IMG/VR virus record: IMGVR_UViG_2875713109_000001
Origin: a virus
Taxonomy: Duplodnaviria; Heunggongvirae; Uroviricota; Caudoviricetes
Length of the DNA: 64,000 nt
Strand: one strand, 5' to 3'
A program made the translations under genes and the position numbers. How positions within the stretch are numbered: position 1 is the first letter of the stretch; the number at the start of each line of letters is the position of its first letter. The notes under the pieces are model-generated. The model was given only the letters and a program-made list of their open reading frames with translations. It ran no database searches and had not been told where the DNA came from. Shown piece after piece: positions 20,668 through 25,502 of the stretch.

Positions 20668-21078
20668 CTACGCCTCCGGGAACGCTGGCCAATTGACATC
20701 TGGTGCAGTGCTGGTATCCGTTGCGGTCACCGCATCGATATAATCCAGCACAGCGTTAAGACGGGTGGTTTCAGCCTGCGTAAGATTCCGCCCGGCCTGT
20801 AATTTCAGTTGAATAAGACTAATGGAAGCCATTGCGGTATCAATCAGCGACTGTTTTTTCTGTTCAGCGTCAGCTACCAGTTCATCATGAGAACGTTCCG
20901 GAGTGGGTGGCGCAGTAAATCCCCCGTCTGAATACACCCAGCCGATTCCGGGCTGCTCACTGATATCAGAAATATTAATGAGCTGCTGATTATCCGGCAC
21001 TGTGAATTCAGCCTCGCCATCCCAGACAATGACATTCACAACCATCCCATTTTCAATAACTGCATATGACGTATTCAT
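20668..21078 (-). CDS. U: tail fibre assembly chaperone (U/Tfa family)
   Basis: ATG at 21078 overlaps the S stop; sits just downstream of the fibre gene; track frame opens at 21102. Confidence 0.55.
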   Translation of the reverse strand: MNTSYAVIENGMVVNVIVWDGEAEFTVPDNQQLINISDISEQPGIGWVYSDGGFTAPPTPERSHDELVADAEQKKQSLIDTAMASISLIQLKLQAGRNLTQAETTRLNAVLDYIDAVTATDTSTAPDVNWPAFPEA

Positions 21079-24000: not shown

Positions 24001-25502
24001 ATGGCTCCTGCTATCCCGGCACTGAATGTAGCAGCAGCTGAAAACGCTGTCTTACCTTTGAAAGTCTGTTGAGAACTCCAGGTATTAGCTGTGCTCAACA
24101 GGGGGATCTTTTCGCCGCTGGTTCCGATTTCTCTTAAACCAAGGTATTGGATAACAGCCAGTGTGCTTGTTTTAGCCAGGATATCGCGACCGACTGACGT
24201 TAAATCAGTCTGGGAAACAGTGTCTGTACCGGTAAAGTACGGCAATTTATTTGCGCCTGTCGCAAGACCAGCAAGCGCGGTTAAAGTTGCATCCAGAGGC
24301 TGTTTGCCTGCCAGCGCATTTGTCATTGTTGTCGCAAAGTTCGGGTCATTGCCCAGTGCTGCTGCAAGCTCATTCAGGGTATCAAGAGCTTCAGGTGATG
24401 AGCCGACCAATGCAGAGATAGCAGCTCTTACATAAGCGGTCGTAGCAATCTGCGTGTTATTCGTACCCTGTGCAGCGGTAGGCGCAGTAGGTATTCCCGT
24501 TAATGCAGGACTTGCTAAAGGAGCTTTAAGAGCCAGAGCATTGTTGATAGTTGTGCTGAAATTCGGGTCGTTATTGATCGCAGCAGCTATTTCTTTAAGC
24601 GTATCCAGAGTGCCAGGTGCACCGTTGATAAGTGCCGTTATAGCTGCCTTAACAAAGGCTGTATTTGCGATCTGCGTGCTGTTTGTACCTTGCGCTGCCG
24701 TCGGCGCGGTTGGCGTTCCTGTCAGACTCGGGCTTTCTATTGGCGCTTTGGTATCAGCCAGCTCTTTTACAGACTTAACGGCTTTAGGGGTAGCCGCCAT
24801 TGTTTCGCTGTCGCTGTTAGTTGCGCTACTGAGCTGAACTAATCCCTTTTGTGTTGTGCTTGCATCCTGCGCCGTATACTTGCTTTTAGCCAGATCGTAG
24901 GCTTTTTTAACCGCCAGCGAACTTGCAGCGACATCACTTCTGGTACTGGTTACAGAGTCGGAAATTTCAATGCCTATCGCGAGATCGATGCGGTCGGATA
25001 CATCTATCATTTCCTTAGTAATAGCAGATACGCCAGCAGGGATATTCACCGTACAAACAAGCAGTTCTCCATCTCCTAACTGATATGAATCGGTATAGGT
25101 TCTGGCAACAAATTCAGCCGCATGAATATGTGACGCGGTATTAACCTGATAAGAATCTTCTCCAAGGAGGTATCTTCCCTTCAGCACAATTGCATATTTC
25201 TTACCTGCGCTAAGTGCAAGAGAAATATCCTTACGCTGCTGAATAGTTACCTGGTAGAATTCACCAATATTCACTGACGCCGCGCCAGCGGTTTTATCAC
25301 CATCCACTGAGGTGATTAACAGGTTCATCCCACCGCCAGGCTTAGGAAAAAAACCGGCATAAAATCCAGGGTCAACAATTCCCCTGAATTTTCGGTTTAG
25401 CGCGGCTGACAGATATGGTTCGTGGTATTGCACATCAGCCACCAGAGCCAACGACTCGGGTGATGGGTAAGTAACCGATGTGACAACTGTAACGTCATTC
25501 AT
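21078..25502 (-). CDS. S: tail fibre protein S-like with tandem fibre repeats and Gly-rich C-terminal region
   Basis: N-terminus MNDVTVVTSVTYP from ATG 25502; eight or more copies of ATATKLQTARTIGGVSFDGSANIDLPGVN; GGGGGGGG and further Gly-rich tracts near C-terminus. Confidence 0.8.
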   Translation of the reverse strand: MNDVTVVTSVTYPSPESLALVADVQYHEPYLSAALNRKFRGIVDPGFYAGFFPKPGGGMNLLITSVDGDKTAGAASVNIGEFYQVTIQQRKDISLALSAGKKYAIVLKGRYLLGEDSYQVNTASHIHAAEFVARTYTDSYQLGDGELLVCTVNIPAGVSAITKEMIDVSDRIDLAIGIEISDSVTSTRSDVAASSLAVKKAYDLAKSKYTAQDASTTQKGLVQLSSATNSDSETMAATPKAVKSVKELADTKAPIESPSLTGTPTAPTAAQGTNSTQIANTAFVKAAITALINGAPGTLDTLKEIAAAINNDPNFSTTINNALALKAPLASPALTGIPTAPTAAQGTNNTQIATTAYVRAAISALVGSSPEALDTLNELAAALGNDPNFATTMTNALAGKQPLDATLTALAGLATGANKLPYFTGTDTVSQTDLTSVGRDILAKTSTLAVIQYLGLREIGTSGEKIPLLSTANTWSSQQTFKGKTAFSAAATFSAGIAGAIEPEKIGDQTVDLNNLTISSDVGAIKYYYCPTFGGGANITNKPDGVNGNFLLRVESTRKVSASDYANMQTLISNDTKRIYVRFVVNGSWAAWSQVVVSGWGQDVSVKSLSAVALSGSLTGNASTATKLQTARTIGGVSFDGSANIDLPGVNKAGNQSTTGNAATATKLQTARTIGGVSFDGSANIDLPGVNTAGNQSTTGNAATATKLQTARTINGVKFDGSANISIPTIASRGRVTALTDTTQGASTGLQMYEAYNNSYPTAYGNVLHMKGASAAGEGELLIGWSGTSGAHAPVFIRSRRDHTDAAWSAWAQVYTSRDSIPGVNATGNQNTTGNAATATKLQTARTIGGVSFDGTANINLPGVNVAGNQNTSGNAATATKLQTARTINGVLFDGSKNIELTPRSIGTINSTTMSFSGGTGWFKLATVTMPQSSSVVYISLIGGSGYNVNSPMQAGISELVLRAGNGNPKGLTGALWRRTSVGFTNFAWVNTSGDTYDVYVEIGNYTTRVNIQWDYTSNASVTIHTSPSYTANKPTGLTDGTVYVIYSSHIKPTATDVGALPITGGNLNGGLTATGEIISKSANGLRIAYGNYGFFIRNDGSNTYFMLTNSGNSLGTYNNLRPLIINNANGTVTIGNGLNVTGGINGSLNGNAATATKLQTVRTIGGVSFDGSANIDLPGVNKTGNQSTTGNAATATKLQTARTIGGVSFDGSANIDLPGVNKAGNQSTTGNAATATKLQTARTINGVKFDGSANITLTAANLGLSDSSGYVGRLVNTQVFTSSGTYTPTPGTKRIRVTITGGGGGGGGCKAYSSSETFFGAGGGAGGTIISIMTPTQNSYPVTIGAGGAGGVSATNGTSGGNSVFASLIAPGGSGGGKSGVTNTNGGNGGVPSTGDIRITGGHGGDGQSGNIGVSGEGGTSYWGGGGRAGAGGGVIGKAYGSGGGGAYDAGYSGTSMTGGKGASGICIIEEFA
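21690..22090. repeat. tandem ~120-bp direct repeats inside S (fibre-repeat units)
   Basis: Near-identical units GCCCGGCAGGTCGATATTGGCACTACCATC...GTTTGCAGTTTTGTTGCAGTTGC, three or more copies. Confidence 0.7.
23300..23650. repeat. second block of the same ~120-bp fibre-repeat units inside S
   Basis: Same unit as 21690-22090; more diverged copies at ~22790-23040. Confidence 0.7.

What the first reader, a model, noticed from the sequence alone, without database searches (positions are those of the whole stretch)
21078..25502. Unusually long tail fibre (about 1.47 kaa) with tandem 40-residue repeats and a Gly-rich C-terminal region
The S-like fibre has a P1/Mu-type N-terminus (MNDVTVVTSVTYP) followed by at least eight copies of a ~120-bp unit in three blocks and a C-terminal third dominated by Gly runs. 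Near-identical DNA repeats predict recombinational length variation, and the Gly-rich distal part is the likely receptor-binding region.
Basis: seen in the sequence. Interest (0 to 1): 0.4.

Follow-up and report, generated by a model that had tools for sequence, protein, structure and literature searches.

The report
Mosaic P1-type tail fibre gene
This is the tail-fibre gene of a P1-like plasmid prophage of E. coli: a patchwork of known fibre modules joined by 40-residue repeats and ending in a glycine-rich tip. It is an ordinary, already-annotated example of how phages reshuffle their host-recognition proteins.

Summary
The gene is real: window 21078-25502 (- strand), 1474 aa, 100% identical to an annotated "tail fiber protein" on E. 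coli IncY plasmid NZ_AP027786.1.

- **N-terminus:** residues 1-483 are 95% identical to the constant part of P1 protein S.
- **Repeats:** there are eight 40-aa units in blocks of 3+2+3. Only four of them are 90-97% identical in DNA.
- **Length variation:** related plasmids carry alleles with 2-10 units (983-1566 aa). Two of them have deletions that join block 1 to block 3, so repeat-mediated length variation is seen in nature.
- **Tip cassette:** the tip and its overlapping chaperone gene are 86-93% and 87% identical to a cassette in chromosomal prophages.
P1's invertible C segment is gone. cixR survives alone, cin is cut to ~217 nt, and there is no alternative tip, so the fibre is locked.
- **Selection:** dN/dS of 0.14-0.31 indicates a working gene.

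Verdict: a new member of a known kind, of low interest. Receptor binding by the tip is inferred, not shown.

The parts
21078..25502 (-). Tail fibre gene S, 1474 aa
   Evidence: Intact ORF. It is 100% identical to WP_077881945.1 'tail fiber protein' on NZ_AP027786.1. dN/dS against three alleles is 0.19-0.25.
24054..25502 (-). Constant part Sc (aa 1-483), P1-type baseplate-proximal portion
   Evidence: 95% aa identity to P1 S aa 1-483. About 93% nt identity to P1 and P7 S nt 1-1448.
24306..24749 (-). Two tandem 74-aa units (P1 elements b1/b2; Pfam Phage_fiber_2) inside Sc
   Evidence: 51 of 74 aa and 64% of nt are identical between the two units. Pfam PF03406 scores 97 bits.
24129..24154 (-). 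Orphan cixR recombination site (TTATCCAATACCTTGGTTTAAGAGAA)
   Evidence: Identical to the P1 cixR region. It is the only match in the window at up to 3 mismatches, with 0 expected by chance.
23649..24053 (-). Segment absent from P1 S (aa 484-618), probably a globular knob
   Evidence: No counterpart in P1 S. Relatives are named 'pyocin knob domain-containing' by PGAP. The fold was not resolved here.
23289..23648 (-). Repeat block 1: three 40-aa units (aa 619-738)
23007..23288 (-). Knob-type domain shared with P1 S (aa 739-832)
   Evidence: Window aa 699-880 is 70% identical to P1 S aa 490-672.
22767..23006 (-). Repeat block 2: two 40-aa units (aa 833-912)
22374..22766 (-). Domain of unknown fold (aa 913-1043)
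   Evidence: 88-92% nt identity to Yersinia myophages vB_YpM_5, vB_YpM_6 and vB_YpM_39 over gene nt 2715-3164. Also matches phrog_3299.
22056..22373 (-). T4 gp34 / Mu S-type trimerisation (beta-prism) domain (aa 1044-1149)
   Evidence: Pfam Gp34_trimer scores 99.3 bits against a cut-off of 27. PDB sequence matches are 5yvq (Mu S, E 6.5e-36) and 4uxe (T4 gp34, E 3.6e-21).
21696..22055 (-). Repeat block 3: three 40-aa units (aa 1150-1269)
   Evidence: The copy number in this block is 2, 3 or 5 in relatives.
21081..21695 (-). Distal tip: TNF-like plus glycine-rich domain (aa 1270-1474)
20668..21078 (-). Tail fibre assembly chaperone, 136 aa; its start overlaps the S stop (TAATG)
   Evidence: Pfam Caudo_TAP, E 2.9e-22. 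phrog_188. The overlap is read from the sequence. 87% identical to the chaperone beside the same tip in a chromosomal prophage.
20348..20564 (+). Remnant of the cin invertase gene (about the first 217 nt)
   Evidence: P1 homology resumes at window 20564, which corresponds to a position inside cin. RefSeq marks a partial recombinase pseudogene here. The low end is estimated from the P1 alignment.
25514..25948 (-). Gene R (P1 tail fibre / baseplate wedge protein), first gene of the operon
   Evidence: Same position as P1 R. Pfam Phage_P1_tail_fiber_R hits the same gene in a relative.
25979..25997 (-). P1 late promoter LPs
   Evidence: 18 of 19 positions are identical to the annotated P1 LPs.

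Best explanation
The gene encodes the single, non-switching tail fibre of a P1-like (IncY) plasmid prophage of E. coli.

**Architecture**
- The first 483 residues are the P1 constant part, which anchors the fibre to the baseplate.
- The rest replaces P1's invertible variable part with a longer chain of borrowed modules.
- Three blocks of a 40-residue unit probably form short stretches of a three-stranded shaft.
- Between the blocks lie globular knob domains and a T4 gp34 / Mu S-type trimerisation domain.
- The fibre ends in a TNF-like plus glycine-rich tip of the kind seen in the cyanophage Pam3 fibre.

**Proposed roles**
- The tip is the most likely receptor-binding end. Its glycine motifs are invariant, and its few variable patches lie between them.
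- The overlapping downstream gene is its cognate assembly chaperone.
- The 40-residue units act as in-frame recombination joints, both within the gene and between genes. Unequal or ectopic homologous recombination adds or removes units, deletes whole inter-block segments and swaps tips.

**Shown and inferred**
- Shown here: module identities, the fold of the tip, allele variation, loss of the Cin switch, and purifying selection.
- Inferred: receptor binding by the tip, the shaft structure of the repeats, and expression from LPs.
For: - **P1 context and Sc identity:**. The LPs promoter is conserved.
- **Repeats:**. P1 S itself has two copies of the motif flanking the same knob.
- **Repeat structure:** a profile of the unit finds only the C-terminal stalk of phage L Dec in the PDB (E 5e-6). 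That stalk is a three-stranded intertwined spike (PMC6449081, PMC11398494).
- **Domain matches:** Pfam and PDB matches for Gp34_trimer, Mu S and Gly_rich_2.
- **Pam3 precedent:** the Pam3 tip domain is proposed to recognise the host receptor, and its chaperone resembles the Mu tail-fibre assembly protein (PMC9608196).
- **Tip variability:** among 120 close tip homologues, mean column entropy is 0.04 for Gly positions and 0.34 for the others. Variation falls in short patches.
- **Tip as a cassette:** the tip is 86-93% identical, and the chaperone 87% identical, to a fibre-plus-chaperone pair beside a Mu-like baseplate in chromosomal prophages.
- **Allele series:** block layouts of 3+2+3, 3+2+5, 3+2+2 and 2+2+3, plus a 983-aa and a 1035-aa deletion allele.
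- **Mosaic history:** against CP116167, dS is 0.006 for Sc, 0.095 for the middle and 0.19 for the tip. dN/dS is 0.14-0.31.
- **Lost switch:** one cix site only, cin truncated, and no second Sv/U set. Relatives show the same layout.
Against: - No experiment links this tip to a receptor. Knob domains along the shaft could also bind surface sugars.
- The AF2 model of the repeat-plus-knob region failed (pLDDT 42), so the shaft structure of the repeats is not established.
- Copy-number differences are between isolates. The 983-aa allele comes from a draft assembly and could be a collapse, although the 1035-aa allele is in a complete genome.
- RefSeq labels the chaperone gene as a partial pseudogene, although the ORF is intact and other records annotate it as complete.
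- Inducibility of this prophage was not assessed.
Confidence: 0.85

Rival explanations
1. The repeat blocks are assembly artefacts (expanded or collapsed repeats), so the 1474-aa length is not real.
For: Four units are 90-97% identical in DNA, which can mislead short-read assemblers. One short allele (983 aa) comes from a draft assembly.
Against: Nine independent complete-genome records from different hosts and countries have the same 4425-4428 bp gene with the 3+2+3 layout. The reading frame stays open through all the repeats. Units differ by diagnostic substitutions that are conserved between records.
Confidence: 0.02
2. The gene is a decaying relic in a defective plasmid prophage. Loss of the inversion module is part of that general degradation, and no functional fibre is made.
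For: cin is truncated and the C segment is missing. The literature notes that P1-like plasmids with altered cin and C segment may have lost host-range switching, and some are defective (PMC6906374). RefSeq flags the chaperone gene as partial.
Against: - The 4.4-kb ORF is intact.
- dN/dS is 0.14-0.31 in every segment.
- The late promoter is conserved 18 of 19.
- The chaperone ORF is intact and translationally coupled, and is annotated as complete in other records.
- Flanking baseplate, holin and lysis genes are present.
Confidence: 0.07
3. The Gly-rich domain is not the main receptor-binding site. It acts as a structural cap or folding nucleus, and specificity resides in the knob domains or in the domain at aa 913-1043.
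For: Relatives with the same shaft modules carry many different C-terminal domains (PF21882, PF12604, PF13884, PF07484). Some alleles insert an extra ~130-aa domain before the tip. The middle region has the highest dN/dS (0.26-0.31). Binding was not tested.
Against: - Tip swapping at a constant shaft is itself what a specificity module would show.
- The tip is terminal and co-inherited with its chaperone.
- Its closest solved relative is a distal domain proposed to bind the receptor (PMC9608196).
- Variable patches sit between invariant Gly motifs.
Confidence: 0.12

Closest known systems
Bacteriophage P1 tail fibre protein S (gpS) with the Cin/C-segment switch
   Same: The N-terminal 483 aa are 95% identical. 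The operon is the same (LPs-R-S-chaperone). The cixR sequence lies at the same codon position. The same 40-aa motif and knob domain are present, and so is the Mu S / gp34-type domain.
   Different: - The protein is 1474 aa against 987 aa.
- It has eight motif copies instead of two, and extra globular modules.
- The tip is a different Gly-rich domain.
- There is no cixL, no Sv'/U', and cin is truncated, so there is no inversion switch.
- The chaperone is only 28% identical to P1 U over 89 aa.
Cyanophage Pam3 tail fibre gp24 with chaperone gp25 (PDB 7YPX, 7YFW)
   Different: Pam3 gp24 is a minimal fibre of about 250 aa with a helical shaft. Here the domain caps a 1270-aa mosaic shaft. The hosts and the rest of the virions are unrelated.
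T4 proximal long tail fibre protein gp34 and phage Mu protein S
   Same: They share the trimerisation / beta-prism domain at aa 1044-1149 (PF21446, 99 bits; 5yvq, 4uxe).
   Different: Only this one module is shared. The 40-aa repeat profile does not detect gp34 in the PDB, even at E<=10.
T-even gp38 adhesins (for example Salmonella phage S16 gp38)
   Same: They follow the same design principle: glycine-rich motifs form a scaffold, hypervariable segments lie between them, and the domain sits at the distal end of a long fibre (PMC9608196, PMC12032242).
Tail fibres of other P1-like and D6-like plasmid prophages, and plasmid p15B (Min multi-inversion system)
   Same: These are long S proteins (983-1566 aa) built from the same repeat, knob and gp34-type modules with exchangeable tips. 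Many are on IncY plasmids. Truncated cin and loss of the C segment in P1-like plasmids are already described (PMC6906374).
   Different: p15B and some relatives keep an invertase and several crossover sites (from memory of Sandmeier et al. 1992; not checked here). This element has a single orphan site and one fixed tip.

Membership tests
P1-type tail fibre S (Punavirus gpS) | N-terminal constant part homologous to P1 Sc | tested here: met
   95% identity over aa 1-483. About 93% nt identity over nt 1-1448.
P1-type tail fibre S (Punavirus gpS) | Position in the late operon: LPs promoter, R, S, then a tail fibre assembly gene | tested here: met
P1-type tail fibre S (Punavirus gpS) | Variable C-terminal part inside a Cin-invertible C segment with an alternative Sv'/U' set | tested here: not met
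   Only cixR is present. cin is reduced to about 217 nt. There are no inverted repeats in 20000-26000 and no second fibre or chaperone ORFs.
Pfam Gly_rich_2 / TNF-like plus glycine-rich fibre tip (Pam3 gp24 type) | Sequence match above the curated threshold | tested here: met
   PF21722 scores 43.8 bits against a cut-off of 24.3, over aa 1283-1471. 8402 representative clusters match at E<=0.001, and in the 150 listed the match is nearly always C-terminal.
Pfam Gly_rich_2 / TNF-like plus glycine-rich fibre tip (Pam3 gp24 type) | Fold: beta-sandwich extended by stacked glycine-rich loops | tested here: met
Pfam Gly_rich_2 / TNF-like plus glycine-rich fibre tip (Pam3 gp24 type) | Adjacent chaperone of the tail-fibre-assembly type | tested here: met
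   A Caudo_TAP ORF overlaps the stop codon. The same pairing occurs in chromosomal prophages.
Pfam Gly_rich_2 / TNF-like plus glycine-rich fibre tip (Pam3 gp24 type) | Trimeric distal tip that binds the host receptor | not testable with these tools
   Only a monomer could be modelled. No binding data exist for this protein.
T-even gp38-type adhesin | Separate monomeric adhesin protein docked on the gp37 fibre end | tested here: not met
   The domain is the C-terminus of the fibre ORF itself.
T-even gp38-type adhesin | Fold similarity to S16 gp38 (6F45) | tested here: inconclusive
T4 gp34 C-terminal trimerisation domain (PF21446) | Sequence match above the curated threshold | tested here: met
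   99.3 bits against a cut-off of 27, over aa 1044-1126. 4uxe matches at E 3.6e-21.
Multi-inversion (Min / shufflon-like) tail fibre system as in p15B | Intact Din-family invertase plus several crossover sites bounding alternative 3' segments | tested here: not met
   There is one full site. A second, weak core match at 21662-21673 is within chance expectation. The invertase is truncated.

The most novel reading that the evidence does not exclude
In this lineage of P1-like phage-plasmids, the lost Cin inversion switch has been functionally replaced by repeat-mediated homologous recombination. On this reading the 40-residue units serve as portable in-frame joints. They would change fibre length, delete inter-block modules and import tip-plus-chaperone cassettes from resident chromosomal prophages. 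This would happen often enough to create host-range and fibre-length heterogeneity within a single lysogen population.
Probability: 0.2. Interest if true: 0.45.

Novelty: new member of a known kind. Interest (0 to 1): 0.2.

Why it matters
P1-like phage-plasmids spread resistance genes, and P1 is used as a DNA delivery vehicle. The tail fibre sets which bacteria they reach.

This allele shows one way a P1 backbone can trade its two-state inversion switch for a single long fibre. That fibre carries a glycine-rich tip shared with chromosomal prophages. The allele also provides a natural series that differs only in repeat number, which could be used to test whether fibre length affects adsorption.

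None of this changes current understanding. Mosaic fibres, repeat motifs and glycine-rich tips are all documented.

Tried and rejected
- **AF2 on aa 484-905** (knob, block 1, knob, block 2), run with an 18-sequence alignment, gave pLDDT 42 and pTM 0.18. The model is unusable, so it was not used for fold search, and the fold of the repeats and knobs stays unresolved.
- **PDB sequence searches with the repeat and knob region.** The 552-aa segment returned only spurious antibody hits. The repeat profile returned only phage L Dec and no gp34 repeat match.
- **NCBIfam scan** returned nothing for the fibre or the chaperone.
- **A second Din-type crossover site.** The core pattern with one mismatch gives three hits against 2.3 expected by chance. 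One hit lies at 21662-21673, at the junction of block 3 and the tip. It resembles hix/gix cores by eye but fails the full 26-bp cixR search at up to 3 mismatches. I treat it as chance.
- **tblastn of the tip against 50,697 phage records** found only jumbo phage Goslar (72% identity). BLAST's low-complexity filter probably hides other Gly-rich matches, so I drew no conclusion about rarity in isolated phages.
- **Literature searches** for a paper describing this specific P1-plus-Gly-rich-tip allele found none. They did find general descriptions of altered cin and C segments (PMC6906374, PMC6799933).
- **Rejected readings:** assembly artefact and pseudogene (see the rival explanations).
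Full report
**What is at the coordinates.** A single ORF runs on the - strand from 25502 (ATG, MNDVTVVTSVTYP) to 21078 and encodes 1474 aa. The window is a P1-like IncY plasmid prophage of E. coli. The gene is 100% identical to positions 25849-30273 of NZ_AP027786.1, where RefSeq annotates it as WP_077881945.1, 'tail fiber protein'. It lies where P1 has gene S, downstream of R (25514-25948). The P1 late promoter LPs is conserved upstream at 18 of 19 positions (25979-25997).

**The repeats.** Tandem Repeats Finder reports two 120-nt arrays with scores 481 and 493 at 90-92% match. The repeat finder places seven overlapping 300-nt copies in three clusters. At the protein level there are eight units of GNAATATKLQTARTIGGVSFDGSANIDLPGVNxxGNQSTT, at aa 619/659/699, 833/873 and 1150/1190/1230. 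No further copy occurs elsewhere in the window.
- Only four units (619, 659, 1150, 1190) are 90-97% identical in DNA.
- Unit 833 is about 71% identical to these.
- The last unit of each block diverges in its second half, where it leads into the next domain.

**The Gly-rich region.** It covers aa ~1283-1474, which is 192 aa or 13% of the protein, not a third. It is 34% Gly, against 10.6% in the rest.

**Module map.**
- **aa 1-483:** 95% identical to the constant part (Sc) of P1 S. This part contains P1's known b1/b2 74-aa duplication, which matches Pfam Phage_fiber_2.
- **P1's own copies of the motif:** P1 S carries two copies of the 40-aa motif flanking a knob domain. That region is 70% identical to window aa 699-880. 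The motif is therefore not new to this gene; it has been multiplied here.
- **aa 484-618:** no counterpart in P1 S.
- **aa 913-1043:** 88-92% identical in DNA to three Yersinia myophages.
- **aa 1044-1149:** the T4 gp34 / Mu S trimerisation domain (PF21446, 99 bits; PDB 5yvq and 4uxe).
- **Whole protein:** it matches 55 PHROG tail-fibre families piecewise.
- **Relatives:** more than 6500 database proteins share the repeat and knob modules while carrying different C-terminal domains.

[quoted passage not shown] In the Dec trimer that part forms a three-stranded intertwined spike, modelled as a beta-helix (PMC6449081, PMC11398494). My AF2 attempt on aa 484-905 failed with pLDDT 42. 'Three-stranded shaft segments' is therefore an inference.

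**The tip.**
- **Family:** aa 1283-1471 match Pfam Gly_rich_2 above threshold. An exhaustive search found 8402 representative clusters with this domain, and in the 150 best listed it is nearly always at the C-terminus.
- **Precedent:** in Pam3 this TNF-like plus glycine-rich domain is the distal end and is proposed to recognise the receptor. It needs a chaperone resembling the Mu tail-fibre assembly protein (PMC9608196).
- **Not gp38-like by these searches:** S16 gp38 does not appear among the top matches.
- **Variability:** among 120 close homologues of the tip, the glycines are essentially invariant. Substitutions cluster in a few short patches between them. This is the pattern expected of a binding surface on a rigid scaffold.

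**Chaperone and cassette transfer.** The 136-aa ORF at 20668-21078 is a Caudo_TAP tail-fibre assembly protein, and its ATG overlaps the S stop codon (TAATG). RefSeq calls it partial, but other records annotate the same ORF as complete. A 308-aa fibre in widespread chromosomal E. coli prophages with a Mu-like baseplate carries the same tip at 86-93% identity. That fibre is often mislabelled 'carbohydrate kinase'. It is followed by a chaperone 87% identical to this one, again with a one-base overlap. Tip and chaperone therefore move together as a cassette.

**Loss of the inversion switch.** The 26-bp cixR sequence is intact at 24129-24154, at the same position as in P1 S. Homology to P1 then resumes only at window 20564, which lies inside cin, so about the first 217 nt of cin remain. 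There is no cixL, no Sv'/U' and no inverted repeat. Close relatives share this layout. Truncated cin and missing C segments in P1-like plasmids have been reported before (PMC6906374).

**Length variation.** Alleles in related plasmids differ by whole units:

| Allele | Length (aa) | Repeat blocks |
|---|---|---|
| Window | 1474 | 3+2+3 |
| CP063718 | 1554 | 3+2+5 |
| CP099053 / CP099043 | 1434 | 3+2+2 |
| CP034959 | 1566 | 2+2+3, with an extra domain |

Two alleles are deletions that join block 1 to block 3.
- A 983-aa protein equals the window allele minus 491 aa.
- CP158349 (1035 aa, from a complete genome) equals the CP034959 allele minus 531 aa.

Of 5426 complete E. coli genomes, 45 carry at least 80% of this gene, and nine carry the 4425-4428 bp form. 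This supports recombination at the repeats and argues against an assembly artefact. It does not show heterogeneity within one population.

**Selection and mosaicism.** dN/dS is 0.14-0.31 in all segments. Against CP116167, dS differs thirty-fold between segments (Sc 0.006, middle 0.095, tip 0.19). Against CP099053, only the tip has diverged. The gene is under purifying selection, and its parts have separate histories.

**Verdict.** This is a functional-looking, already-annotated mosaic tail fibre of a P1-like phage-plasmid. It is a new member of a known kind and of low general interest.

Noticed in passing
window 24129-24154 and 20348-20564: An intact P1 cixR site survives inside S. Its partner site and most of the cin invertase gene are gone, so the host-range inversion switch of P1 is fossilised in this plasmid lineage.
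   Followed up: yes
window 20668-21078: RefSeq marks the tail fibre assembly gene as a partial pseudogene ('missing N-terminus'). The 136-aa ORF is intact and overlaps the S stop codon (TAATG). It is annotated as complete in other records.
   Followed up: yes
L014 6001-7343 (E. coli chromosome, GCA_033178685.1): A 308-aa prophage tail fibre carries the same Gly-rich tip and is widely named 'carbohydrate kinase' in public records. It sits after Mu-type baseplate genes and before a Caudo_TAP chaperone and an O-antigen-type acyltransferase, so the name looks like a misannotation.
   Followed up: partly
window 21662-21673: The sequence AAACCTGGGTAT (- strand context GAATACCCAGGTTTTCAC) lies at the junction between repeat block 3 and the tip and resembles the core of Din-family crossover sites. 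The match count is within chance expectation, and the full cixR pattern does not match.
   Followed up: partly
window 26863-28296: The homologue of the P1 baseplate protein BplA is labelled 'bleomycin hydrolase' in RefSeq records of this plasmid family, which is probably a propagated misannotation.
   Followed up: no
window 11548-12912: A HipA-family toxin gene (yjjJ in the RefSeq annotation) sits beyond the 3' end of the dar (antirestriction head protein) gene cluster, on the opposite strand. Whether it is an accessory insertion relative to P1 was not checked.
   Followed up: no
phage record MK327938.1 98893-99543 (jumbo phage Goslar): A tail fibre of the E. coli jumbo phage Goslar carries a tip 72% identical to this one. 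It is the only hit among 50,697 phage records, but low-complexity masking may hide others.
   Followed up: no
L008 (NZ_CP034959.1) S protein aa ~1230-1360: A widespread allele, found in about 30 complete genomes, has an extra domain of roughly 130 aa inserted between repeat block 3 and the Gly-rich tip. Its fold and role are unknown.
   Followed up: no
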